A DNA stretch of 37,263 nucleotides from a virus (IMGVR_UViG_2778261172_000006:1-37263), one strand, 5' to 3'. Counted from the stretch's first letter, positions 23,809 to 35,555 are shown. The notes: generated by a model from the letters alone, not told the origin. Numbers and translations are program-made.

Positions 23809-25911
23809 ATGAGTACCACAACACGAAAATTTAAAACCGTTATCACCGATACGGGCGCAAAAAAATTAGCTCAGGCAGCCGCGCCAGATGGTAAGCCTGT
23901 CCGCCTGACTCATATGGCCGTGGGCGACGGTGGCGGCACGTTGCCCACACCAGACAGTAAGCAGACCCGTCTGGTGCATGAGGTGTGGCGACACACTGTT
24001 AATCGCGTCATCCTGGACGCAACACATCAGAACCGCATTATTGCGGAGCTGGTTATTCCTCCTGAAACGGGCGGATTCTGGATCCGGGAAATTGGTGTAT
24101 TTGATGAGCACGGCGATTTAATCGCGGTGGGCAATACTGCCGAAAGTTACAAACCAACCGTTGCCGAAGGGTCCGGACGTGCACAAACATTTCGCACCAT
24201 TCTGACCGTATCCAGCACTGCCACCGTGGCGCTTACCGTGGATAACACCATGGTGATGGCCACAGTGGATTACGTGGATGACAAACTGAAAGAGCATGAA
24301 CAGTCACGACGTCACCCGGACGCCTCGCTGACCGCAAAAGGCTTTGTTCAACTCAGTAGCGCCACTAACAGCGATTCTGAAACGCTGGCTGCAACGCCGA
24401 AAGCGGTTAAGGCCGCGTATGACCTGGCTAACGGAAAATATACCGCTCAGGACGCCACGACGGCACGAAAAGGGATAGTCCAGCTCAGCAGTGCAACCAA
24501 CAGCACGTCTGAAACGCTGGCAGCGACACCAAAAGCGGTTAAGGCGGTAATGGATGAAACGAACAAGAAAGCCCCATTAAACAGCCCGGCACTGACCGGA
24601 ACGCCAACAACACCAACTGCACGACAGGGAACGAATAATACCCAAATCGCAAGCACGGCTTTCGTTATGGCCGCGATTGCCGCACTTGTAGATTCGTCAC
24701 CTGACGCACTGAACACGCTGAACGAGCTGGCGGCGGCGCTGGGCAACGACCCGAATTTTGCGACCACCATGACTAACGCGCTTGCGGGTAAGCAACCGAA
24801 AGATGCCACCCTGACGGCGCTGGCCGGGCTTGCTACTGCGGCAGACAGGTTTCCGTATTTTACGGGGAATGATGTCGCCAGCCTGGCAACCCTGACAAAA
24901 GTCGGGCGGGATATTCTTGCGAAATCGACCGTTGCTGCCGTTATCGAATACCTCGGTTTACAGGAAACGGTAAATCAGGCTTCTGGCGCATTACAGAAAA
25001 ACCAGAACGGCGCAGATATTCCGGGAAAAGATACCTTCACCAAAAATATTGGGGCCTGCCGCGCATATAGCGCATGGCTGAATATTGGTGGCGATAGTCA
25101 GGTCTGGACAACCGCGCAATTTATTTCGTGGCTGGAGAGTCAGGGAGCATTTAACCATCCTTACTGGATGTGCAAAGGCTCATGGGCTTATGCAAATAAT
25201 AAGGTCATTACAGATACAGGTTGCGGAAATATTTGTCTTGCAGGTGCTGTGGTGGAAGTTATTGGTACTCGCGGCGCAATGACCATACGCGTTACTACGC
25301 CGAGCACGTCCAGCGGTGGCGGAATTACTAACGCTCAATTCACTTATATTAATCATGGTGATGCTTATGCTCCTGGCTGGCGACGAGACTACAACACGAA
25401 AAATCAACAACCTGCATTTGCTTTAGGGCAAACAGGAAGCACTGTCGGAAATGATAAAGCTGTTGGCTGGAACTGGAATAGCGGGGTCTATAACGCAAAC
25501 ATTGGTGGCGCATCGACATTAATCCTCCACTTCAATATGAATACGGGGAGCTGCCCTGCTGTACAGTTCCGCGTGAATTACAGGAACGGCGGTATTTTTT
25601 ATCGTTCAGCGCGTGATGGTTATGGATTTGAGGCTGACTGGTCAGAGTTTTACACCACGACCCGCAAACCCTCTGCGGGAGATGTTGGTGCATACACGCA
25701 GGCAGAATGTAACTCAAGGTTTATTACAGGTATTCGCCTTGGCGGTCTGTCATCTGTTCAGACATGGAATGGCCCCGGCTGGTCTGACAGGTCAGGTTAT
25801 GTCGTTACGGGTTCAGTTAACGGAAACCGTGATGAATTAATTGATACAACACAGGCAAGGCCAATTCAGTATTGCATTAATGGAACGTGGTATAACGCGG
25901 GGAGTATTTAA
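23809..25911 (+). CDS. H: tail fibre protein (P2 gpH family); C-terminal part encoded inside the invertible segment
   Basis: 700 aa; internal SSATNS-ETLAATPKAVKA repeats; C-terminus CINGTWYNAGSI; constant part ends at the left crossover site. Confidence 0.9.
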   Translation: MSTTTRKFKTVITDTGAKKLAQAAAPDGKPVRLTHMAVGDGGGTLPTPDSKQTRLVHEVWRHTVNRVILDATHQNRIIAELVIPPETGGFWIREIGVFDEHGDLIAVGNTAESYKPTVAEGSGRAQTFRTILTVSSTATVALTVDNTMVMATVDYVDDKLKEHEQSRRHPDASLTAKGFVQLSSATNSDSETLAATPKAVKAAYDLANGKYTAQDATTARKGIVQLSSATNSTSETLAATPKAVKAVMDETNKKAPLNSPALTGTPTTPTARQGTNNTQIASTAFVMAAIAALVDSSPDALNTLNELAAALGNDPNFATTMTNALAGKQPKDATLTALAGLATAADRFPYFTGNDVASLATLTKVGRDILAKSTVAAVIEYLGLQETVNQASGALQKNQNGADIPGKDTFTKNIGACRAYSAWLNIGGDSQVWTTAQFISWLESQGAFNHPYWMCKGSWAYANNKVITDTGCGNICLAGAVVEVIGTRGAMTIRVTTPSTSSGGGITNAQFTYINHGDAYAPGWRRDYNTKNQQPAFALGQTGSTVGNDKAVGWNWNSGVYNANIGGASTLILHFNMNTGSCPAVQFRVNYRNGGIFYRSARDGYGFEADWSEFYTTTRKPSAGDVGAYTQAECNSRFITGIRLGGLSSVQTWNGPGWSDRSGYVVTGSVNGNRDELIDTTQARPIQYCINGTWYNAGSI
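24340..24558 (+). repeat. tandem repeat of about 132 bp inside H, encoding GxVQLSSATNSxSETLAATPKAVKA twice
   Basis: Two 44-aa units visible in the H translation. Confidence 0.75.
24941..24974 (+). repeat. left crossover (gix-like) site
   Basis: TTATCGAATACCTCGGTTTACAGGAAACGGTAAA, inverted copy of 28002-28035 (31 of 34 identical); contains the TTCCTGTAAACCGAGGTTT core I recall for Mu gix. Confidence 0.85.
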
Positions 25912-25913
25912 TT

Positions 25914-26447
25914 ATGATGCACTTAAAAAATATTACAGCTGGCAACCCTAAAACAAAAGAGCAATACCAGCTAACGAAACAATTTAACATCAAATGGCTT
26001 TATACAGAGGATGGGAAAAACTGGTATGAGGAACAAAAGAACTTTCAGCCTGATACGTTGAAAATGGTCTATGACCACAACGACGTTATTATTTGTATTG
26101 AAAAGGATGTTTCAGCAATTAATCCAGAAGGCGCAAGCGTCGTTGAGGTTCCTGATATTACAGCAAATCGCCGGGCTGATATTTCGGGTAAATGGATGTT
26201 CAAAGATGGCGTAGTGATAAAGCGAACTTATACCGAGGAGGAACAGAGGCAGCAGGCAGAGAATGAAAAGCAAAGCCTGTTGCAACTTGTCAGGGATAAA
26301 ACCCAGCTATGGGACTCACAGCTACGGCTGGGCATCATTTCCGACGAGAATAAACAAAAATTAACCGAGTGGATGCTCTATGCGCAGAAGGTCGAATCCA
26401 CAGACACCTCCAGCCTGCCAGTAACGTTTCCCGAACAACCTGAATGA
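25914..26447 (+). CDS. G: tail fibre assembly chaperone (P2 gpG / Tfa family)
   Basis: 177 aa starting MMHLKNITAGNPKT; directly follows H. Confidence 0.85.
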   Translation: MMHLKNITAGNPKTKEQYQLTKQFNIKWLYTEDGKNWYEEQKNFQPDTLKMVYDHNDVIICIEKDVSAINPEGASVVEVPDITANRRADISGKWMFKDGVVIKRTYTEEEQRQQAENEKQSLLQLVRDKTQLWDSQLRLGIISDENKQKLTEWMLYAQKVESTDTSSLPVTFPEQPE

Positions 26448-26480: not shown

Positions 26481-27003
26481 CAGGCTTTTGTGGCCATTCA
26501 GGATTTGCCGTATCCACACGGCTGACCAGAACACTGTAGCGTTCCCATGACTCCAGTCGTGCGCGCTCCTCATCCGTCGCCATATTCAGCCTGACAGCGC
26601 GTTCCAGTGGCTGAATAACGCTTTCTGCTTCGGAAAGTAACGCAGCCTTTTGTGATTCGGCCTGTTGTTGCTGTTCATCAGCCGTATAAATCCGTTTAAC
26701 CACAGCTCCGTCCTTAAACATCCACTTTCCTGAATCATCAGCGCGGCGGTTGGCTGTAATATCGGGAACCTCAACGACGCTAAAGCCTTCAGGGTTAAGC
26801 GTAGAGGCATCCTTGGTGATAGCGACAATAATATTATTTTCATCGTAAACAATCTTTATTGTGTCTGGCTGAAAGTTTTTCACTTCCTCATACCAGTTTT
26901 TTCCGTCTTCGGACCACAACCAGATAACGTCAAAATTCTTTGTTAATTCGTACTGCTCCAGTGTTTTAGCATTACCCGTTTTTATATTCTTTAAGTGCAT
27001 CAT
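26476..27003 (-). CDS. alternative tail fibre assembly chaperone (Tfa', inverse orientation)
   Basis: 175 aa, N-terminus [14 protein letters not shown] paralogous to G; minus strand inside the invertible segment. Confidence 0.85.
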
Positions 27004-27004
27004 A

Positions 27005-27985
27005 CTAAACGCTCGCTACATTATACCAGGTGCCATTTATATACTTTTGAACGGGTCTGTAATAAACGCCCGCTATATTATCGGCAGAGTTGGACCCTGT
27101 ATCCTGAACATTAATACCAGACAATACATGACCTGACGGGCACTGGAAATTCCATGTTTGCCAGTTGTTCACTCCATAATATTGCTGTGAACCAAGTCGA
27201 ACATCTTTCACATATCTGGAATCAAAATTGCCATAGTTGCCGGGAATAACTTGCGAGCCGCAAAGCCAGTTCCCGTTATTATCCATGTACGCCTGACCAT
27301 CGGTACCATTGGCTGTCCTTGAGTTATTAATCATGTAGATGCCAAATTGCTTATTCCCCAATCCACCTATCATGAACTTGCGGTCGGCGTGATTCTGGCG
27401 AAGCAACGCCTGAGCGCTATCAGTGTTAACTATATTTTTCCCAAAGATAGCGTTGTTATCGCGCATCTGAATCCACATACCATTACTGCTGTTAATAGCA
27501 AAACGGTCTGAAAGTGTCTCCCCTGAAACATTAAGACCACGCCCCATCGAAACAGCGCCAGTAGCGTTATTAATCCATAATGGCCTTAATCCGTTATAAG
27601 TCCCCATGTTGTCACCGGAGTTTGTCAACATGAAGTATGTATTTGAACCATCATTACGAATAAAGAATCCGTAATTACCATAAGCAATACGTAGGCCGTT
27701 TGCTGATTTTGATATGACTTCGCCATTTACAATGGCATTGACAAGAACATACAAAGCATCCCATTTAAGATTCATCAGGTCTTTTGTTGTGGTGCTTTGT
27801 TTGCTTCTCCATTTGAAATATTCATTGCCGTTGTCGCCTGTTTCAAACCACATGAATGAATCAGTATCGCTGTCGGCATCATTTTTAAAACCAATCTTCG
27901 CCCAGTCGGTATTTCGAATCCATGCAAGAATTGAGTCGTTTTCAAAAGTAAGTCCACCGGACAAGATATCGCCTGTCTTTTGCAC
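27005..27985 (-). CDS. alternative tail-fibre C-terminal cassette (no start of its own; reading frame stays open through the right crossover site to 28027)
   Basis: Frame upstream of the track start reads [15 protein letters not shown], matching EYLGLQETVN at the H crossover; C-terminus [11 protein letters not shown] paralogous to the H C-terminus. Confidence 0.8.
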
Positions 27986-28001
27986 GGCGTTACCAGCCTT
28001 G

Positions 28002-28035
28002 TTTACCGTTTCCTGTAAACCGAGGTTTTAGATAA
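28002..28035 (-). repeat. right crossover (gix-like) site
   Basis: TTTACCGTTTCCTGTAAACCGAGGTTTTAGATAA. Confidence 0.85.
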
Positions 28036-28089
28036 TGGCCGTTTCCGGCCTGCATGGCATGATTTGCGCTTTTGGACGGGAGATTCAGC

Positions 28090-28677
28090 GTGCTGATTGG
28101 CTATGTAAGGGTATCAACAAATGACCAGAATACAGACCTGCAACGAAACGCTCTTGTTTGTGCAGGATGTGAACAAATATTTGAAGATAAATTAAGCGGG
28201 ACAAAGACAGACCGACCGGGATTAAAACGCGCTTTAAAGCGCCTTCAAAAAGGTGACACGCTGGTTGTCTGGAAACTGGATCGCCTCGGGCGAAGCATGA
28301 AACATCTGATTTCTCTCGTCGGGGAACTACGGGAGCGAGGAATTAATTTTCGCAGTCTGACCGACAGCATAGATACATCTTCTCCAATGGGGCGTTTTTT
28401 CTTCCACGTGATGGGTGCCCTGGCTGAAATGGAACGTGAATTAATTGTTGAACGTACACTGGCCGGACTGGCGGCAGCACGCGCACGGGGGCGCACAGGC
28501 GGACGTCGACCGAAGCTGACAAAAGAACAGCATGAGCAAATAGCAAGGCTAATCAAAAACGGGCACGACAGAAAACAACTGGCAATAATTTACGGCATTG
28601 GTATATCGACGATTTATCGTTACCACCCCGCAGGAGAATCAAGGGGAACAATTGAGAAGAGTCAGGAAACAAAATAA
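28090..28677 (+). CDS. serine DNA invertase (Gin/Pin/Cin/Hin family)
   Basis: GTG start after GGGAG; VLIGYVRVSTNDQNTDLQRNALVCAGCEQIFEDKLSGT... is near-identical to the remembered Mu Gin sequence, including the catalytic Ser region and C-terminal HTH. Confidence 0.95.
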   Translation: MLIGYVRVSTNDQNTDLQRNALVCAGCEQIFEDKLSGTKTDRPGLKRALKRLQKGDTLVVWKLDRLGRSMKHLISLVGELRERGINFRSLTDSIDTSSPMGRFFFHVMGALAEMERELIVERTLAGLAAARARGRTGGRRPKLTKEQHEQIARLIKNGHDRKQLAIIYGIGISTIYRYHPAGESRGTIEKSQETK

Positions 28678-28705
28678 CCGCTAATCTGACCATTAGCGGT
28701 TTTTG
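28678..28705. terminator. terminator between invertase and U (bidirectional candidate)
   Basis: CCGCTAAT-CTGACC-ATTAGCGG hairpin followed by TTTTT. Confidence 0.6.
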
Positions 28706-28712
28706 TGTTAAA

Positions 28713-29207
28713 TCAGAACAGCCCTTTAACTGAACTGGCCGCGCTGTTAAGAGATGATGTCACCTTATCTTTGAAGCCGGACAGCATATCGCTGAATGAT
28801 GAGGATTGCAGGCGCTCCCGCAAATCCTCATCACAGCGTTCAAGGGTCAGTGAAAATTCTATCTTTTTCGCCTTACCGTAGCGATCAAACTCGGAACGGG
28901 TCGTATTCGTTTCAGTCAGCACATACATGCCGTAAATCTGCCCGACACCATCAATCAGAGGCCAGGGGCGTCCTGTATATGCCTGCGTGGTCAGCAACGA
29001 AAGCGACACTTCGCCACCTGTAATTTCAGGATAAAGCACGCCGGAAAGCACAATGCGATCATCACCTGCACCTATATACTGCCAGCTTGCTGAACGGTTA
29101 ACGCGTTCATTTTTCACATGCCGCCAGCTTTTGTTTTGCTGTAACTGCTGATGCGGCAGTGTGCGCAGCTCAAAAACAAACATGCCGTAGATCATCATCA
29201 TGACCAT
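28713..29207 (-). CDS. U: tail protein (P2 gpU family)
   Basis: 164 aa starting MVMMMIYGMFVFEL, like P2 U; start among several adjacent Met codons. Confidence 0.8.
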   Translation of the reverse strand: MVMMMIYGMFVFELRTLPHQQLQQNKSWRHVKNERVNRSASWQYIGAGDDRIVLSGVLYPEITGGEVSLSLLTTQAYTGRPWPLIDGVGQIYGMYVLTETNTTRSEFDRYGKAKKIEFSLTLERCDEDLRERLQSSSFSDMLSGFKDKVTSSLNSAASSVKGLF

Positions 29208-29213
29208 GACTCC

Positions 29214-32030
29214 TCAATCTTTATCGTAAAAACTGCCACGTCCGGCACGGGCGCGCCGTTCCATCTCTGCCCTGACCATTTCACCGACCAGTTTCGCCAG
29301 TTCGCGGGGATTCTGCGTAACAACGTTATGCAGATGAACATGAATTTCACCGCCAAATCCGGAGACAACAGGCTCCCGGTTACGGGAAGTTGCAGGAATT
29401 GATGCCACTGGCGATCGTATGGCCTCCGCCACCGGACGGGAGCTGGCCGCAACAACAGGGACCAGCGCCGGAGGCAGAGGAGCCGGGACTACGGGTGTGA
29501 TGTTGATTGCGGAAGCAGACTTACTGGCCTGCGCAATCTTCCGCTCCTGCCACTCCCCACGAACAGCAAGTGCGCGGGGCAGGTTCTTAAAGACAATATC
29601 GCCGGGGCCAATGCGTTTTTTCGTCTCATCAACCAGCTTACCTGTGTTATCAGCAATTTTGCTGAGTCTGCGTAGCGTACCGGTATTGCTGTCTGTGAGC
29701 GGTTTATTGTCTTTGGGTTTATCACCTCCGGTGCCATTGCCATTTTCCGCAGGCTTCGGCGGATTGATTTTCGCAAGGTCCCCCTGAAGCAAGGCAACCT
29801 TGTCCTGAAGAATGGCCGCACGCTGTGCGTCTTCGATTTTCTTGCGCGCCCTTTCCGCTTCATCCGGAAGGACGCCAAGTTTTTCAAGTATCCACGCCAG
29901 CGTATCCAGTAGCATTTTTGCAGGTGTCAGAACAAGCTGTAACGCACCGCCAAGAACGTTACCGAATATCTCGCCAGCACTGGTACATTTATCCAGCGTT
30001 TCCTTGCTGGACTCCATCGGTGATAGCAGCGATTTAAACCAGTTAAAGACCTGAATAATCCCATCACGCACGACATCAAAAACAGGACCGAACCGTTCAA
30101 AGGTTTCGCGCAACGGAGCCAGCCGTTCCATAATCCCACTGAACACCCCGGCATAAAACGCCTTGATGGGTTCCCAGTATTTCCAGATGAGAACCGCCGC
30201 AGCCACAAACGCAGCAACAATCAATCCAACCGGACTGAGCAGCGCCCCGATAGCGCCACCCAGCAACGAGATGGAACCTGTTACCATTCCCCATAGTGCT
30301 GGCAGCACCCTGACGACATTCATTGATCCTGTCAGGAGAGAAAAACCGAGACGTAACGTAGCCAGCTTCCCGTGAAGCACCCCAATAACCAGAGACAACG
30401 AACCAACCGTTGCTGTTGTCGCCAGCAGTGCACCTCCCGCTATCAGTAGCTGGCGCGTCAGTGCCGGATGGGCCTGCGCCAGCGCCGTCACCCTTGATAC
30501 CACCCGCGTGAGCCACTGCGTGACAGAACGCAGCGGACCGTCAATCAGATCTGCAATGCGGATGCGCAACCCTTCCCATGCACTGCCGAGTGATTTCAGA
30601 TCGCCGTCAAGGTTGTTGGCCATAACCTTTGCCGTGCGTTCAGCCTCACCGCGCGCGCCTTCAAGTTCTTTTCTCAGTTTGGGTAAGGAGCCGTCACCTG
30701 CCGCATCAACGAGGGCCATAAATGATGTGAAAGCCTCTTCTCCGGCAATGTCCTTAAAGAACGATACCCGGTCAACTTCCCCGTATTTGCGGGTGGCTTT
30801 ATAAAGGTCAGCCAGCACATCCTCCATCGGGCGCATTTTGCCCCCGGCATCCGAGACAGACACGCCAAGCTCTTTCAGCGCCTCTGCTGCCGCCTTTGGC
30901 GGTGATGCCAGACGAGCCAGGCTGGCACGCATTGCCGTCCCGGCATCACTCCCTCTGATACCCATATTCGCCAGCACGCCCGCCATCGCTGCGGCCTGCT
31001 CCAGCGATATTCCCAGCTTACCCGCCACCGGACCTGCATATTTCATGGTTTCGCCCAGCGCGCGAAGGTCAGTGTTAGTACGGGTAAACGCTGCTGTAAG
31101 CGTGTCACCGACCCGGTCCATCTGGTCAGCGGAGAGGCCGAACTGCGTCAGGATATTTGAGCCAATATCTGCCGTCTCGCCGAGATCCATACCGCCAGCC
31201 GTTGCCATGCTCAGCACGCCGGGAAGCGCAGCCTGAATGGCCTGCGGAGTGAAGCCAGCCATTGCAAGAAATGCCTGCCCACTGGCGGCATCGCCTGCGG
31301 TGAACTGCGTTTCAGAGCCAAGTTTTAACGCCTGCTCACGCAGCGCCTTAAACTGCGGGCTGTTCTGGTCGATTCGCGTCAGTGCCTGAACGCGGGACAT
31401 CTCTTTCCCGAACCCGATCGCAGGCTGCAAAAAACGCCCGGCAGCATAGCCGCCCGCCGCTGCCGCACCAATTGCCAGTGCACCACCTGTTTTCAGTTTT
31501 CCCGCTGTTTCCTGCGCGCGCGAATACCGCTCACGCGCCCGCGTTACACGCGCAAGCGCCTGCCGTTCGCGTTCAAGCTGGTTGTTATACTGTTCGGTGC
31601 GTCTGATGGCCTGCTGGATGGTGTTATCGCTGCCTGTCAGGGAAATGCCGTGGCGTTTCAGCTCTCCGCCAAGCTCCCGCATTTTCTGAATTTCCCGTGT
31701 GCGCGATTCATTCAGGCGTTCAAGCCGGGTGCTTAACTGCTGCATCAGCTTTTGTTGTTTTTCGCTGAGCACTGTACCCGTGCGTTGTAACTGATTAAGG
31801 GCGTTAAGCTGGCGTCGTGCTTTCACGATACCCGCATCCGCTTTACTGACAGCGTCGCGGGCGCGCTCAAATGAACGCGCCTGACGCTCGAGATTTTTGA
31901 TCGCCCCCTGCGTTCGCTGGATGGAGTCACCAAACTGCCCCATCAGGCGGCGTGCGTTTTCGGCAGGTCGGGTCAGCCTGTCAACGGCGCTGAAAGCGAC
32001 CCGGATATCAAGAGTCTTCATTGTCTGCAT
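29214..32030 (-). CDS. T: tail tape measure protein (P2 gpT family)
   Basis: About 940 aa, Ala/Gly-rich with coiled-coil N-terminal half; start ambiguous between 32021, 32030 and 32057. Confidence 0.88.
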   Translation of the reverse strand: MQTMKTLDIRVAFSAVDRLTRPAENARRLMGQFGDSIQRTQGAIKNLERQARSFERARDAVSKADAGIVKARRQLNALNQLQRTGTVLSEKQQKLMQQLSTRLERLNESRTREIQKMRELGGELKRHGISLTGSDNTIQQAIRRTEQYNNQLERERQALARVTRARERYSRAQETAGKLKTGGALAIGAAAAGGYAAGRFLQPAIGFGKEMSRVQALTRIDQNSPQFKALREQALKLGSETQFTAGDAASGQAFLAMAGFTPQAIQAALPGVLSMATAGGMDLGETADIGSNILTQFGLSADQMDRVGDTLTAAFTRTNTDLRALGETMKYAGPVAGKLGISLEQAAAMAGVLANMGIRGSDAGTAMRASLARLASPPKAAAEALKELGVSVSDAGGKMRPMEDVLADLYKATRKYGEVDRVSFFKDIAGEEAFTSFMALVDAAGDGSLPKLRKELEGARGEAERTAKVMANNLDGDLKSLGSAWEGLRIRIADLIDGPLRSVTQWLTRVVSRVTALAQAHPALTRQLLIAGGALLATTATVGSLSLVIGVLHGKLATLRLGFSLLTGSMNVVRVLPALWGMVTGSISLLGGAIGALLSPVGLIVAAFVAAAVLIWKYWEPIKAFYAGVFSGIMERLAPLRETFERFGPVFDVVRDGIIQVFNWFKSLLSPMESSKETLDKCTSAGEIFGNVLGGALQLVLTPAKMLLDTLAWILEKLGVLPDEAERARKKIEDAQRAAILQDKVALLQGDLAKINPPKPAENGNGTGGDKPKDNKPLTDSNTGTLRRLSKIADNTGKLVDETKKRIGPGDIVFKNLPRALAVRGEWQERKIAQASKSASAINITPVVPAPLPPALVPVVAASSRPVAEAIRSPVASIPATSRNREPVVSGFGGEIHVHLHNVVTQNPRELAKLVGEMVRAEMERRARAGRGSFYDKD

Positions 32031-32537
32031 TCCCGCTGCGAAGTGCCGCCCGCTCACGCCAGCTAACCACTTCGCCGGGCGTCATCATGAAGATTTCGGC
32101 GGGCGACCAGTTAAAAATGGCGGCAATATCCGCCACAAAGTCTTCTATGTGCTCAAAGCACACAACCGTGATCAGGCTTCCGTCGCCTGTTCGTTCTTCC
32201 CGCCAGAGTCCGCACCGCTCAAAAAATTTACGGCAACCACACATAACTGAATAAAGTCACGGGATGCCATTTTTTTGATCGTCACTTCATCCAGTCGCGG
32301 TGATGTCACGCGTGACAGCAGCGTAAACATGGATTCCGCTTTCAGACTCAGCACATCAGACAGCGACAAATCTCGCAGAGATCCAGCCTGCTCAATAGCC
32401 CCGGTGATCTCCACATACGTGATTTTTTCGCCGCCTCGCTCAATGGGTTGGGTAAGTTTTACGCCACGCTCACTGGTTTCTTTCACAGTGTCAGCAACTA
32501 CCGTATTTTCGGTATCGATGTTTTTCGTCTCTTTCAT
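32008..32537 (-). CDS. E+E' product of programmed -1 frameshift
   Basis: TTTTTTG heptamer (minus strand, 32220-32226) in the E frame; -1 frame stays open to 32008 and overlaps the T start, as in P2 E/E'. Confidence 0.7.
32172..32537 (-). CDS. E: tail assembly chaperone E (P2 gpE family)
   Basis: ATG at 32537 with AAGGAG RBS; 121 aa; contains slippery heptamer near the 3' end. Confidence 0.8.
   Translation of the reverse strand: MKETKNIDTENTVVADTVKETSERGVKLTQPIERGGEKITYVEITGAIEQAGSLRDLSLSDVLSLKAESMFTLLSRVTSPRLDEVTIKKMASRDFIQLCVVAVNFLSGADSGGKNEQATEA
32220..32226 (-). other. -1 ribosomal frameshift slippery site TTTTTTG
   Basis: Read directly; E frame AAT TTT TTG, shifted frame AAA TTT TTT GAG. 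Confidence 0.7.
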
Positions 32538-32591
32538 CAGGAAACTCCTTTCAGTCAGAGGCGACGCACTGCGCCGCCTGCATATTACTTA

Positions 32592-33104
32592 TCAGCCAAG
32601 CCCGAGCGCGGAACGGATGCGATCGGGCACAATGTCCTTGCCGTCCTTCCGGTAAATGAAGTTCAGCAGGTCAATCTCCCACAACGGGCGATCGTTAACA
32701 CTCAGCTTGTAGTAGGTGTTTTTAATGGCGTAAGTGTGTGATGTGGCTTCGCCCTGTTTGGCTTCCCCCATATCAATTTCCGTCACACGTCCGCGCATTT
32801 CGACTTCATACAGGTCGCTTTCTGCATCGGTGTAGTATTCACCCGCAAAACGCAGCAGCGTGCCGTCAATCGTGCCGCCATACTTAAGGAACAGCTCACG
32901 AACTGCGCCCCCCATGACAAAGCTCGCATCAAGCGCGGAGTCGTCCAGGCCGAGATCAATACTTACCGCCCCCATCATGCCACCACCCCGGTAGCTGTCG
33001 GTTTTGCGCGTCAGCTTAGGCAAAGTGACGGACGTCACCTTACCCACTTCGTTTTCACCATCCACAAACAGCGTAAAAAAGCGAAGATGTTTTGGCACAG
33101 CCAT
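32592..33104 (-). CDS. FII: tail tube protein (P2 gpFII family)
   Basis: 170 aa; GGGAGG RBS; start overlaps FI stop. Confidence 0.88.
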   Translation of the reverse strand: MAVPKHLRFFTLFVDGENEVGKVTSVTLPKLTRKTDSYRGGGMMGAVSIDLGLDDSALDASFVMGGAVRELFLKYGGTIDGTLLRFAGEYYTDAESDLYEVEMRGRVTEIDMGEAKQGEATSHTYAIKNTYYKLSVNDRPLWEIDLLNFIYRKDGKDIVPDRIRSALGLG

Positions 33105-34288
33105 CAGGCACCTCCCAGCACCGCAAATGCGGGTTCAAAGTATTCATCAGTAAACGTCTGGTAAAGCTCCATGTCTTCCAGTGGCGGAACGGGCGTATAT
33201 TTGTAGCGAATACGCACACGCCCCTGACGTAAATCCGTGGTGCTGTTATCCACCACGTCATACCAGCACTCCGCGCCAATCAGTTTCCCGGCAGTCACCA
33301 GTGAATCCAGTTTTGCCCTGATGGCACTGATAACATCCTTCACGTTCGCAGGCGTCAGTGGACTGTCGATGGTTTCAAACTGCGCTTCCGCAATTGAATC
33401 AGCCAGCACCTGTGCGGTTCGGGTATACACCTCAAAAATGTAGGCGTTCGTTTCCGGTGTGCGGTTGCCCCAGAAGCGGAACCCGTTGCGACGAATAATG
33501 GTCGTGATTTCTTTGTTGTTGAGGCTGTTGGCATCGCTGTCTTCGGCCTGCAACGACCAGAACACATGCCTCGACATCCCCAGCACATTTTTAACCGGAA
33601 CGTTGGACAGCGATTTGTGCCAGCCCTGCTCATGGTCAATGTACGCACGAAGGCCGCACGCATAAGCAGGCGCGGGGAACGTTTCGTTTTCGCCACTTTT
33701 CGGGTTGTAGGCGATGAAGTCCGGCCATAAGAGCATCACTTCACGTTCGTTGAATTTCTGGCGGTAGGTAATCGCTTCAGCCATCGTGTTACAGCCGTGA
33801 CATGAGGCATACACAAATGCGCGCAGTTTACCCGCAATCACGCACAGGGATTTTGTCACCGCCTCCGTGTCCAGCTCCGGCGCGGCCAGAATACGCGGAC
33901 GGTATCCGATGCTTTCATCCTGCTCTGCAACAAGCAGCGCATACATCCCCGTATAGCTGCCGTCATCCTCAGAACCACCGATAACCAGTTGATCCTGCGT
34001 CTTTTCGTCTTCTTCTTTGTGTTCAGCCACGCGAACGACGATCACCTTTGTGCTCACCTGGTCTGCGATGGCCTTAAGCGCACGATAAAGCGTCCCCGTT
34101 GTTCCGCATTTTCCCAGCACGTCATTGACGCGGGTCAGCAGTGTGGGCTTGTTCAGCGGGAACAACTTCGCGTCCGCATCATCCGCCGTTGCCACGATAC
34201 CGATAACGCTGGAATCAACATCGTTAATCGCTGTTACCAGGTCGGTATTTTCCGTAACACGGGCACCATGAAAACGAGTTTCACTCAT
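33104..34288 (-). CDS. FI: tail sheath protein (P2 gpFI family)
   Basis: 394 aa; IRRNGFRFWGNRT and YKYTPVPPLE motifs as in P2 FI; AAGGGG RBS. Confidence 0.9.
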   Translation of the reverse strand: MSETRFHGARVTENTDLVTAINDVDSSVIGIVATADDADAKLFPLNKPTLLTRVNDVLGKCGTTGTLYRALKAIADQVSTKVIVVRVAEHKEEDEKTQDQLVIGGSEDDGSYTGMYALLVAEQDESIGYRPRILAAPELDTEAVTKSLCVIAGKLRAFVYASCHGCNTMAEAITYRQKFNEREVMLLWPDFIAYNPKSGENETFPAPAYACGLRAYIDHEQGWHKSLSNVPVKNVLGMSRHVFWSLQAEDSDANSLNNKEITTIIRRNGFRFWGNRTPETNAYIFEVYTRTAQVLADSIAEAQFETIDSPLTPANVKDVISAIRAKLDSLVTAGKLIGAECWYDVVDNSTTDLRQGRVRIRYKYTPVPPLEDMELYQTFTDEYFEPAFAVLGGA

Positions 34289-34445
34289 AGCTTCAGCCCC
34301 TTGTATCCGTTAAATGATTCGGCAACAATCATCACCCACCACGCGCGTAATCTCACCCCTGCGCCGTTCTCCCGCCACGGCGACAACAAAAAGCAGTAAC
34401 CCCCTCCGCACGCACATGCGACCATGCCACACAGGGAGGGAGCAG

Positions 34446-35555
34446 ATGACCGACACCACCATGCAATTGCTCAGTCAGGGCACAGACCCCGTGAAAATGC
34501 CGGATTTTGATATTCTCGCCGAGGGTAAAACGCTGTCCGGCGTGGCAGAACGCCTGATGAGCCTGTCACTGACCGACAACCGGGGATTTGAGGCGGACCA
34601 GCTCACCATCACGCTGGATGATGCTGATGGTCAGTTGCAGTTGCCGCCACGGGGCGCTCGCCTGACGGTTCTCATTGGCTGGAAAGGCGAACCGCTGACA
34701 GAAAAAGGCACTTACATTGTTGATGAAATTGCTCATGAAGGACCGCCCGACAGACTGACCATTTCAGCCAGAAGCGCAGATTTTCGGGATGAATTTAACG
34801 TCAAGCGCGAAGTGTCCTGGCATGATGTGACCGTTGAGCGAGTGGTATCCGCCATCGCTCATCGGTACGGTCTGAAACCGCAAATCAGCGAAATGCTGAT
34901 GGATATCGAAATCGACCACGCCGACCAGACCGAAGAAAGTGACATGTCCTTCCTTACGCGCATGGCGGAAATGCTGGGCGCAATCACCACGGTAAAAAGC
35001 GGCAATCTGTTATTCATCATGCCCGGTGGTGGCGTGAACGCACAGGGCCAGCCGTTGCCCTCGTTCGCCATTACACGCAGCAGCGGCGATCGCCATCAGT
35101 TCCGTATTGCTGACCGCGAGGCGTATACGGGGGTACGCGCCTACTGGCTTGATCTTAATTACGGGAAAAAGAAAAAGGTCAGCGTAAAACGCCGTAAACC
35201 GCCAAAACCCAAAAAGGAGAAAAGCAGCAGCCGTGAAGGTGATTATATGGAAGGTGCGGAAGGCAATGTGTTTGTGTTACGCAAGACTTATCAGAACGAG
35301 CAGGCAGCAAGACGCGCAGCGGCGGCAAAGTGGCAGCAGCTACAACGCGGAGCCGCATCATTTTCCATCACGCTGGCACGTGGACGTGCAGAACTCTACC
35401 CCGAAATGCATGGCACGGTAACAGGATTTAAAAGCGAGATTGATAATCAGGACTGGATTATTGCAAAAGCCGAGCACACCATTGATAACAGCGGCTTTAC
35501 CACGCAGCTTGAGCTTGAGGCAAAAATCCCGGAATGGATAGCGGAAACAGAGTGA
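34446..35555 (+). CDS. D: late tail protein D (P2 gpD family)
   Basis: ATG at 34446 after GGGAGGGAG; 369 aa; position immediately before ogr. Confidence 0.88.
   Translation: MTDTTMQLLSQGTDPVKMPDFDILAEGKTLSGVAERLMSLSLTDNRGFEADQLTITLDDADGQLQLPPRGARLTVLIGWKGEPLTEKGTYIVDEIAHEGPPDRLTISARSADFRDEFNVKREVSWHDVTVERVVSAIAHRYGLKPQISEMLMDIEIDHADQTEESDMSFLTRMAEMLGAITTVKSGNLLFIMPGGGVNAQGQPLPSFAITRSSGDRHQFRIADREAYTGVRAYWLDLNYGKKKKVSVKRRKPPKPKKEKSSSREGDYMEGAEGNVFVLRKTYQNEQAARRAAAAKWQQLQRGAASFSITLARGRAELYPEMHGTVTGFKSEIDNQDWIIAKAEHTIDNSGFTTQLELEAKIPEWIAETE

What the first reader, a model, noticed from the sequence alone, without database searches (positions are those of the whole stretch)
32008..32537. Conserved E/E' programmed -1 frameshift
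The heptamer TTTTTTG (minus strand, 32220-32226) lies near the end of E, and the -1 frame remains open for 72 more codons, overlapping the start of T. This matches the P2 E/E' arrangement and supports the tail-chaperone annotation.
Basis: partly seen in the sequence, partly recalled or inferred. Interest (0 to 1): 0.2.

Follow-up and report, generated by a model that had tools for sequence, protein, structure and literature searches.

The report
P2-type tail chaperone frameshift site

Summary
On the minus strand, T_TTT_TTG lies at 32226-32220 in the X_XXY_YYZ register of gene E (32537-32172, 121 aa). The -1 frame stays open for 72 codons to a TGA at 32010-32008, overlapping the tape-measure ATG (32021) by 14 nt.

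- The conceptual fusion aligns colinearly with P2 gpE+E' across the junction (E=8e-25).
- The -1 part carries Pfam PF06528 (1e-11) and PHROG 1756 (1e-39).
- The same in-register heptamer occurs in 10 of 13 Peduoviridae lineages, although only ~0.6% of x-Phe-Leu tripeptides would be encoded that way under this phage's codon usage.
- It is the only one of 31 in-register slippery heptamers in the window whose -1 frame extends the protein.
- No stimulatory RNA structure was found, as reported for P2.

The window is a P88-like (Xuanwuvirus) prophage found in about a quarter of complete E. coli genomes.

Two nuances:
- The site is really a tandem A_AAT_TTT_TTG. About half of the genus, including plaque-forming phiSM, has AAT TTT ATG and keeps only A_AAT_TTT.
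- Most records fetched here, including all for this genus, list E' as a separate small ORF (or omit it) rather than as a frameshift product.

Low interest.

The parts
32172..32537 (-). Gene E (0 frame), 121 aa, tail assembly chaperone. ATG at 32537, TGA at 32174-32172.
   Evidence: ORF list. BLASTP to P2 gpE+E'. PHROG 103 'tail protein' E=9.6e-35. Pfam Phage_TAC_7 scores only 17.1 bits, below the cutoff of 25.
32545..32550 (-). Shine-Dalgarno AAGGAG, 7 nt upstream of the E start codon.
   Evidence: Read directly from the sequence.
32220..32226 (-).
   Evidence: Identical heptamer and register to the annotated P2 frameshift site. Present in register in 10 of 13 Peduoviridae lineages.
32223..32229 (-). 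Overlapping upstream slippery heptamer A_AAT_TTT, in register with codons 104-105. Together with the previous part it forms the tandem motif A_AAT_TTT_TTG (32229-32220).
   Evidence: It is invariant in 119 of 119 IMG/VR contigs of this genus, while TTG is replaced by ATG in 59 of them. It belongs to the H_HH.U_UU.Y class measured as most efficient in E. coli (PMC4066793).
32008..32226 (-). E' extension in the -1 frame: 72 codons (FFERCGLW...NEDS) plus TGA at 32010-32008. The conceptual E+E' fusion is 176 aa.
   Evidence: Translation. PHROG 1756 'tail protein' E=9.9e-40 over residues 1-70.
32029..32136 (-). Conserved E' domain (Pfam PF06528 Phage_P2_GpE), residues 135-170 of the fusion, encoded only in the -1 frame.
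   Evidence: Pfam E=1.1e-11, 44.4 bits against a cutoff of 23. Aligns with P2 E' DLMADVAVIFHWPPSEL...WREKALRRSGN.
32172..32219 (-). Dual-coding overlap. The 0 frame encodes the E C-terminal tail (SGADSGGKNEQATEA*). The -1 frame encodes the E' linker (ERCGLWREERTGDGS).
   Evidence: The -1 frame motif LW..ER.GDG recurs in Edwardsiella, Klebsiella and Enterobacter relatives.
29214..32021 (-). Gene T, tail tape measure protein. Its ATG at 32021 lies 14 nt inside E'.
   Evidence: Pfam PhageMin_Tail E=3.6e-58. Start codon as annotated in the identical KOr024 prophage.
32592..33104 (-). Gene FII, tail tube protein, immediately upstream of E.
   Evidence: Pfam Phage_tube E=7.5e-47.

Best explanation
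The region encodes the tail assembly chaperone pair gpE and gpE+E' of a P88-like (Xuanwuvirus, Peduoviridae) prophage. The two proteins are made from one start codon by programmed -1 ribosomal frameshifting.

Proposed mechanism:
1. Most ribosomes read E to its stop at 32172 and make the 121-aa gpE.
2. A minority slip back one nucleotide on the tandem slippery run A_AAT_TTT_TTG (32229-32220).
3. Those ribosomes continue in the -1 frame for about 70 codons to the TGA at 32010-32008, giving a ~176-aa fusion.
4. The fusion's C-terminal part is the conserved E' domain.

By analogy with P2 E/E+E' and lambda G/GT, the shared N-terminal part would bind the tape measure protein T. The rarer E' domain would recruit tube protein, so the slip frequency would fix the ratio of the two chaperones.

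Basis of each step:
- Shown here: the anatomy, the homology across the junction, and the conservation of the shift site.
- Inferred from homologues: that the slip happens, its frequency, which of the two overlapping heptamers is used, and the binding roles.

No RNA stimulator appears to be involved.
For: Anatomy and homology:
- Heptamer register and open -1 frame.
- Gene order sheath - tube - E - E' - tape measure - gpU.
- The fusion aligns colinearly with P2 gpE+E', with the junction FF on P2's FF (E=8e-25).
- The P2 record annotates E+E' as a two-piece join with a -1 frameshift at the same TTTTTTG.
- PF06528 matches only the -1 part (1.1e-11). PHROG 1756 covers the whole -1 ORF (1e-39).
- In tblastn of the fusion against phages, every listed hit that spans both halves of the fusion is in two pieces, which one search shows to be two reading frames.

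Conservation of the shift site:
- In-register T_TTT_TTG occurs in 10 of 13 lineages. The other three each keep an in-register X_XXY_YYZ heptamer: T_TTT_TTT, C_CCT_TTC and A_AAT_TTT.
- Under this phage's codon usage only ~0.6% of x-F-L tripeptides would read NNT TTT TTG.
- In SEN4 the -1 frame opens exactly at the heptamer. In P2, PsP3 and YenM it opens 3 codons before it.
- In phiT5282H and Kp4846-1 the -1 ORF has no start codon until codon 47-48, so the E' domain is reachable only by frameshift.

Uniqueness in the window:
- It is the only site among 31 in-register slippery heptamers whose -1 frame extends the protein.

Literature:
- P2 makes a 91-aa E and a 142-aa E+E' by a -1 shift at TTTTTTG, with no downstream structure (PMC3091744).
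- P2 E' lacks a ribosome binding site (PMC3931495).
- Role of lambda G/GT (PMC5009743).
Against: - There is no direct evidence of the fusion protein for this phage or its genus. The P88 paper does not mention a frameshift.
- The 0-frame protein scores below the Pfam Phage_TAC_7 cutoff (17.1 against 25 bits). There is no NCBIfam hit.
- No stimulatory RNA structure was found (z = -0.68 and +0.68; zero consensus pairs). No upstream SD-like element is evident. Efficiency may therefore be low.
- U_UUU_UUG is not among the motifs measured as most efficient in E. coli.
- T_TTT_TTG is absent from about half of the genus, so the exact slip site is not settled.
- An ATG exists in the -1 frame 6 codons upstream of the heptamer (32244), although without a Shine-Dalgarno sequence.
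Confidence: 0.9

Rival explanations
1. The frameshift is real, but in this genus the functional shift site is A_AAT_TTT (32229-32223), one codon upstream of the first reader's heptamer. T_TTT_TTG would be an ancestral, dispensable or merely additive second site. This is a refinement of the main explanation rather than an exclusive rival. The confidence given is for A_AAT_TTT contributing a substantial share of the shifts.
For: - GTA AAT TTT is invariant in 119 of 119 IMG/VR contigs, although the search pattern left these 10 positions free.
- 59 of those contigs read AAT TTT ATG, which destroys T_TTT_TTG. Two of them carry the change on the window-type backbone.
- In those relatives A_AAT_TTT is the only in-register heptamer in the 100-nt zone where a -1 shift would be productive.
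- One of them, phiSM, forms plaques (PMC6456863; locus L021).
- 5 of 8 synonymous sites differ in the codons just upstream between the two alleles, but 0 of 3 differ in GTA AAT TTT.
- GTA AAT TTT is expected for only ~2.6% of V-N-F tripeptides.
- A_AA.U_UU.U falls in the H_HH.U_UU.Y class, most efficient in E. coli, whereas U_UU.U_UU.G does not.
Against: - Outside the genus the conserved element is T_TTT_TTG, and the preceding codon is GGT, CCT or GAT, not AAT.
- The genus sample contains only 8 distinct alleles, so invariance is weak evidence.
- P2 is reported to shift on TTTTTTG.
Confidence: 0.45
2. E' is a separate small protein translated from its own start codon, as most public records list it: a 51-aa 'GpE family phage tail protein' from GTG 32163, or a 78-aa ORF from ATG 32244. 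No frameshift would be needed.
For: - P88, PhiR44_2 and RefSeq/PGAP annotate a stand-alone 51-aa CDS.
- A 78-aa ATG-initiated ORF exists.
- PHROG 1756 and PF06528 appear to be built from such ORF calls.
Against: - No Shine-Dalgarno-like sequence precedes either candidate start.
- The candidate starts are not conserved. SEN4, Kp4846-1, phiT5282H and Kp4860-2 have no start codon in the -1 ORF until codon 28-48, at or beyond the start of the conserved E' domain.
- Protein conservation in the -1 frame begins right at the heptamer, upstream of GTG 32163.
- The P2 E' ORF lacks a ribosome binding site and is expressed as E+E'.
Confidence: 0.04
3. The second product arises from transcriptional slippage of RNA polymerase on the T6 run (a one-nucleotide insertion in the mRNA), not from ribosomal slippage.
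For: The site contains a homopolymeric run (A3T6). Transcriptional slippage is a known way of joining overlapping frames (PMC5009743).
Against: - Six T is short for productive RNA polymerase slippage (general knowledge).
- About half of the genus has only T4 (AAATTTTATG) yet keeps the same two-frame arrangement.
- The strict X_XXY_YYZ register conserved across lineages matters for tRNA re-pairing, not for polymerase slippage.
Confidence: 0.03
4. It is a chance juxtaposition or a decayed gene: the heptamer is fortuitous and the -1 ORF is a non-functional remnant.
For: TTTTTTG is frequent in the window (22 copies). Three in-register T_TTT_TTG heptamers occur inside genes.
Against: - Domain-level conservation of the -1 ORF.
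- Heptamer conservation from E. coli to Burkholderia and Ralstonia phages, despite a rare Leu codon (TTG is 4.9% of Leu codons).
- An intact arrangement at at least 80% query coverage in 1370 complete E. coli genomes and in viable phages such as P88.
Confidence: 0.01

Closest known systems
Bacteriophage P2 E / E+E' programmed -1 frameshift in the FETUD tail operon (Christie et al. 2002; NC_001895 P2p25/P2p26)
   Same: - Same position between FII and T.
- Same T_TTT_TTG heptamer in the same register.
- Homologous proteins on both sides of the junction (E=8e-25).
- E' overlaps the start of T (8 nt in P2, 14 nt here).
- No downstream RNA stimulator.
   Different: - Only 30% identity.
- E is 121 aa against 91 aa, with a ~20-residue N-terminal extension.
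- The fusion is 176 aa against 142 aa, with a 10-residue longer linker.
- The heptamer lies 16 codons before the E stop instead of 7, so the dual-coding overlap is 48 nt.
- An extra overlapping heptamer (A_AAT_TTT) is present.
- The TAAGGTG element upstream of the P2, PsP3 and YenM sites is absent.
- The FI-FII-E-T-U block is transcribed opposite to gene D, unlike P2's FETUD operon.
Escherichia phage P88 and other Xuanwuvirus prophages (NC_026014 gp47/gp46)
   Same: 98.9% nucleotide identity over 801 nt, with an identical site and arrangement. The window is 100% identical to the E. coli KOr024 prophage over the same stretch.
   Different: Nothing biological differs. Those records list E' as an independent 51-aa CDS and do not annotate the frameshift. 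The sister clade (520873, P88_4B11, phiSM) has AAT TTT ATG.
Lambda gpG/gpGT and the conserved tail-assembly-chaperone frameshift of long-tailed phages (Levin 1993; Xu, Hendrix and Duda 2004)
   Same: - Two proteins share an N-terminus and are made by a -1 shift near the end of the gene just upstream of the tape measure gene.
- The presumed function is the same: tape-measure chaperone plus recruitment of tube protein at a fixed ratio.
   Different: - No detectable sequence similarity (Pfam hits only to the P2-type families).
- Lambda uses G_GGA_AAG (general knowledge).
- Lambda is a siphovirus, whereas this is a contractile tail.
Burkholderia and Stenotrophomonas P2-like phages (KS5, KS14, KL3, Milagro, Smp131)
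   Same: Conserved T6G or T7G slippery run in the E homologue. No downstream hairpin is reported for the Burkholderia phages. The frameshift is predicted by homology.
   Different: Distant sequences. Variants T7G and T7C are reported there. Milagro is annotated with a join, unlike the Xuanwuvirus records.

Membership tests
P2-type gpE / gpE+E' tail assembly chaperone pair with -1 frameshift | Gene lies between the tail tube gene (FII) and the tape measure gene (T). | tested here: met
   Phage_tube E=7.5e-47 upstream and PhageMin_Tail E=3.6e-58 downstream. Coordinates.
P2-type gpE / gpE+E' tail assembly chaperone pair with -1 frameshift | The 0-frame product is homologous to P2 gpE. | tested here: met
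   The BLASTP alignment of the fusion with P2 E+E' covers residues 23-104 of the E part (E=8e-25 overall). PHROG 103 E=9.6e-35. Caveat: Pfam Phage_TAC_7 scores 17.1 bits, below the cutoff of 25, and there is no NCBIfam hit.
P2-type gpE / gpE+E' tail assembly chaperone pair with -1 frameshift | The -1 frame downstream encodes the E' domain (PF06528). | tested here: met
   PF06528 E=1.1e-11, 44.4 bits against a cutoff of 23, on fusion residues 135-170. PHROG 1756 E=9.9e-40.
P2-type gpE / gpE+E' tail assembly chaperone pair with -1 frameshift | An X_XXY_YYZ slippery heptamer, in register, lies within the zone where both frames are open. | tested here: met
   T_TTT_TTG at 32226-32220 and A_AAT_TTT at 32229-32223, both in register within the 82-nt zone.
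P2-type gpE / gpE+E' tail assembly chaperone pair with -1 frameshift | The shift site is conserved among relatives beyond what the protein sequence requires. | tested here: met
   10 of 13 lineages have T_TTT_TTG and the other three have other in-register heptamers. The expected frequency from codon usage is 0.006.
P2-type gpE / gpE+E' tail assembly chaperone pair with -1 frameshift | E' has no independent translation start or ribosome binding site. | tested here: inconclusive
   No SD-like sequence precedes any start codon in the -1 ORF. However, an ATG (32244) and a GTG (32163) do exist here. In several relatives no start codon exists before the conserved domain.
P2-type gpE / gpE+E' tail assembly chaperone pair with -1 frameshift | The E' reading frame overlaps the start of T. 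| tested here: met
   E' stop at 32010-32008 and T ATG at 32021, a 14-nt overlap. P2 has an 8-nt overlap.
P2-type gpE / gpE+E' tail assembly chaperone pair with -1 frameshift | Both gpE and the fusion gpE+E' are actually produced and needed for tail assembly. | not testable with these tools
   This needs protein detection and genetics. It is reported for P2 only (cited).
Lambda gpG/gpGT family (sequence membership) | Sequence similarity to lambda gpG/gpT families. | tested here: not met
   The Pfam scan returned only P2-type families. This is a functional analogue, not a member.
Frameshift sites with an RNA stimulator (dnaX or IS3 type) | A stable or conserved hairpin or pseudoknot 5-9 nt downstream, or an SD-like element upstream. 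| tested here: not met
   Folding z-scores of -0.68 and +0.68. RNAalifold found 0 pairs in 6 relatives. No Rfam hit. No SD-like motif in the 24 nt upstream (by inspection).

The most novel reading that the evidence does not exclude
In the Xuanwuvirus lineage the working shift site may have migrated one codon upstream to A_AAU_UUU, a motif class measured as more slippery in E. coli than P2's U_UUU_UUG. On this reading the window carries a tandem double-slip site that could yield two isoforms (..NFFER.. and ..NFLER..) or a higher E+E':E ratio. The sister clade, including viable phiSM, would rely on A_AAU_UUU alone. This would be a natural example of slip-site turnover within a conserved recoding event.
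Probability: 0.4. Interest if true: 0.25.

Novelty: new member of a known kind. Interest (0 to 1): 0.13.

Why it matters
The main value is for annotation. This prophage family sits in about 25% of complete E. coli genomes (1374 of 5426). The P88, PhiR44_2, 520873, P88_4B11 and RefSeq/PGAP KOr024 records list E' as a stand-alone 'GpE family' mini-ORF, and the phiSM record omits it. None shows the C-terminal part of a frameshift fusion. Recognising the join gives the correct 176-aa chaperone.

The tandem and alternative heptamers offer a small natural experiment on which motifs E. coli ribosomes use without an RNA stimulator. Nothing here changes understanding of phage tail assembly.

Tried and rejected
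- Downstream RNA stimulator: folding of 50 and 90 nt after the heptamer was no better than shuffles. RNAalifold on six relatives gave no pairs. Rfam gave nothing. Rejected.
- dN/dS of the -1 frame, window against phage 520873: abandoned. The E' domain is almost identical at the nucleotide level between the two, probably through mosaic exchange, so it is uninformative.
- NCBIfam and PDB sequence search: no hits.
- First IMG/VR pattern scan failed because of my own spacing error in the pattern. It was corrected after testing on the loci.
- The genome-contig scan with a single protein returned only 3 loci. The phage tblastn was used instead for diversity.
- The primary P2 paper (PMC135442) is not held. 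P2 facts are cited from papers that quote it and from the P2 GenBank record.
- I considered whether the opposite orientation of FI-FII-E-T-U relative to gene D was an artefact or an invertase-driven inversion. P88 has the same order and no inverted repeats flank the block, so it is native.
- Structure prediction and the large protein searches were not run. The answer did not depend on them.
Full report
**What is in the sequence**

- On the minus strand, gene E starts at the ATG at 32537 and ends at the TGA at 32174-32172 (121 aa). It is preceded by AAGGAG at 32550-32545.
- Codons 103-106 read GTA AAT TTT TTG. TTTTTTG therefore occupies 32226-32220. Its first T is the third base of codon 104, which is the T_TTT_TTG register required for tandem -1 slippage.
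- Translation in the -1 frame from 32226 gives 72 sense codons (FFERCGLWREERTGDGSLITVVCFEHIEDFVADIAAIFNWSPAEIFMMTPGEVVSWRERAALRSGNADNEDS) and then TGA at 32010-32008.
- The tape-measure gene starts at the ATG at 32021, as RefSeq annotates the identical prophage. E' overlaps it by 14 nt.

**Context**

- The window is a complete P2-like prophage of the P88 type (genus Xuanwuvirus, Peduoviridae).
- The 801 nt around the site are 100% identical to E. coli KOr024 and 98.9% identical to phage P88. A match occurs in 1374 of 5426 complete E. coli genomes.
- The neighbouring genes on the minus strand are sheath (34288-33104), tube FII (33104-32592), E, tape measure T (32021-29214) and gpU (29207-28713), all with strong Pfam hits.
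- Gene D lies on the opposite strand (34314-35555). P88 has the same order, so this is native to the genus.

**Is it more than chance?**

- The heptamer alone is not. TTTTTTG occurs 22 times in the window (11.4 expected). I counted 31 in-register X_XXY_YYZ heptamers in 45 heuristically chosen genes, three of them T_TTT_TTG.
- The E site is the only one where the -1 frame runs past the 0-frame stop, by about 55 codons. At every other site a slip would truncate the protein.

**Homology**

- The conceptual fusion (E residues 1-104 plus the -1 frame) aligns in one colinear block with P2 gpE+E'. The FF at the junction aligns on P2's FF (30% identity, E=8e-25).
- Pfam PF06528 'Phage P2 GpE' matches fusion residues 135-170, which exist only in the -1 frame (E=1.1e-11).
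- PHROG 1756 covers the whole -1 ORF (9.9e-40) and PHROG 103 covers E (9.6e-35).
- The E part is below the Pfam Phage_TAC_7 cutoff (17.1 against 25 bits). It has no NCBIfam or PDB match.
- The P2 RefSeq record annotates E+E' as a two-piece join with a -1 frameshift at its own GGT TTT TTG, the same heptamer in the same register.

**Conservation**

- tblastn of the fusion against 50,697 phage records found 271 records. Every listed hit that spans both halves of the fusion is in two pieces, which one search shows to be two reading frames.
- I fetched 22 loci representing 13 lineages. They cover Escherichia, Salmonella, Klebsiella, Enterobacter, Edwardsiella, Yersinia, Zymomonas, Burkholderia and Ralstonia.
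- In each locus I located the zone where E and the -1 frame are both open. Ten lineages have T_TTT_TTG in register.
- The other three each keep an in-register heptamer: Zymomonas T_TTT_TTT, Klebsiella Kp4846-1 C_CCT_TTC, and the 520873/P88_4B11/phiSM subgroup only A_AAT_TTT.
- With this phage's codon usage (TTG is 4.9% of Leu codons), an x-Phe-Leu tripeptide would read NNT TTT TTG about 0.6% of the time. The recurrence is therefore selected at the nucleotide level.
- In SEN4 the -1 frame opens exactly at the heptamer. In P2, PsP3 and YenM_56.17 it opens three codons before it.
- In phiT5282H and Kp4846-1 the -1 ORF has no ATG, GTG or TTG until codon 47-48, beyond the conserved ADIAVIFNW motif.
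- The E' domain can thus be reached only by frameshifting from E. This argues against the stand-alone 51-aa CDS that the P88, PhiR44_2 and RefSeq/PGAP records annotate.
- In the window neither candidate start (ATG 32244, GTG 32163) has a Shine-Dalgarno-like sequence.

**Stimulators**

- The 50 and 90 nt after the heptamer fold no better than shuffles (z = +0.68 and -0.68).
- RNAalifold on six relatives predicts no pair. Rfam has no match.
- This agrees with what is reported for P2 and the Burkholderia P2-like phages (PMC3091744).
- The TAAGGTG element just upstream of the P2, PsP3 and YenM sites is absent here.

- The window actually has two overlapping in-register heptamers, A_AAT_TTT (32229-32223) and T_TTT_TTG (32226-32220).
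- I scanned IMG/VR with a pattern that left the ten central positions free. It returned 119 contigs of this genus: 60 read GTA AAT TTT TTG and 59 read GTA AAT TTT ATG. Two of the latter are on the window-type backbone.
- T_TTT_TTG is therefore dispensable in the genus, whereas A_AAT_TTT is invariant. Five of eight synonymous sites in the preceding codons differ between the two main alleles.
- Only 8 distinct alleles were sampled, so this is suggestive rather than proof.
- One ATG-type phage, Citrobacter phiSM (L021), forms plaques (PMC6456863).
- In systematic E. coli measurements H_HH.U_UU.Y motifs, which include A_AAU_UUU, are in the most efficient class. U_UUU_UUG is not, and the U_UUG tetramer is only 1.8-3.6 times above background (PMC4066793).
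- I therefore regard the 10-nt run 32229-32220 as the shift site and leave open which heptamer carries most of the flux.
- The two make distinguishable products: ..VAVNFFER.. from A_AAT_TTT and ..VAVNFLER.. from T_TTT_TTG.

**Mechanism and function**

- Shown here: the anatomy, homology across the junction, conservation of the shift site, and absence of an independent start in relatives.
- Inferred from P2 and lambda: a minority of ribosomes shift; gpE and gpE+E' are both needed for tail assembly; the shared part binds the tape measure; the extension recruits tube protein (PMC5009743; PMC3091744; PMC3931495).

**Verdict**

- This is a new, unannotated member of a well-known kind, with a minor variant feature (a tandem or alternative heptamer). 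Interest is low.
- The practical consequence is annotation. The E' mini-ORF in these very common E. coli prophages should be joined to E by ribosomal slippage.

Noticed in passing
window 32054-32085 (minus strand), PAM ATG at 32088-32086: A 32-nt spacer in the type I-E CRISPR array of E. coli GmM066 (NZ_CM183652) matches the E' coding region exactly. The protospacer is preceded by a canonical ATG PAM. This prophage family has therefore been sampled by native E. coli CRISPR adaptation.
   Followed up: yes
window 28713-34288 (minus) versus 34314-35555 (plus): The FI-FII-E-E'-T-U block is transcribed in the opposite direction to gene D and to the head and baseplate genes, unlike P2's single FETUD operon. 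P88 has the same order and no inverted repeats flank the block, so it is a fixed feature of the genus.
   Followed up: partly
window 24937-24998 and 27978-28039; invertase 28072-28677 (+): 62-nt inverted repeats (79% complementary) bracket a ~3-kb segment. It holds the distal tail-fibre and assembly genes in two orientations, with a second 353-nt inverted pair at 25908-26260 / 26657-27009. It lies next to a Hin/Gin-type serine invertase (Resolvase E=1.5e-50). This looks like an invertible host-range switch.
   Followed up: partly
window 28676-28701: A 10-bp perfect hairpin with T runs on both sides lies between the convergent invertase and gpU genes. It looks like a bidirectional intrinsic terminator.
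   Followed up: no
window 32117-32136 (minus strand): A terminator-like hairpin, GTGGCGGATATTGCCGCCAT followed by TTTTAAC, lies inside the most conserved part of E' (VADIAAIFN). P2 has no equivalent pairing there, so it is probably a by-product of the coding sequence.
   Followed up: partly
window ~32176-32183, and the equivalent positions in L008-L013: An 8-nt block is conserved ~37 nt downstream of the heptamer: GGAGACGG in Edwardsiella, Klebsiella, Enterobacter and 520873, and GGCGACGG in the window. It lies in the dual-coding overlap (ETE in frame 0, GDG in frame -1). Double coding constraint probably explains it, but in relatives it is SD-like.
   Followed up: no
IMG/VR loci L024-L142: One contig with the TTG-type site has a -1 frame open for 1001 codons from the heptamer, so E' appears fused in frame to the tape measure. 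Two others have shortened extensions (38 and 46 codons). These may be indels or sequencing errors near the E'/T junction.
   Followed up: no
L007 (NZ_JBQPOM010000071.1, 'Vagococcus sp. WN89Y'): A 226-kb contig labelled as a Vagococcus (Firmicutes) assembly carries this enterobacterial prophage region at 93% protein identity. This probably reflects contamination or mislabelling of the assembly.
   Followed up: no
L001 520-660 (phage P88 record): P88 annotates a hok/gef-family 'MokW-like host killing' gene beyond gene D. The corresponding part of the window (about 35.7-37.2 kb) was not examined.
   Followed up: no
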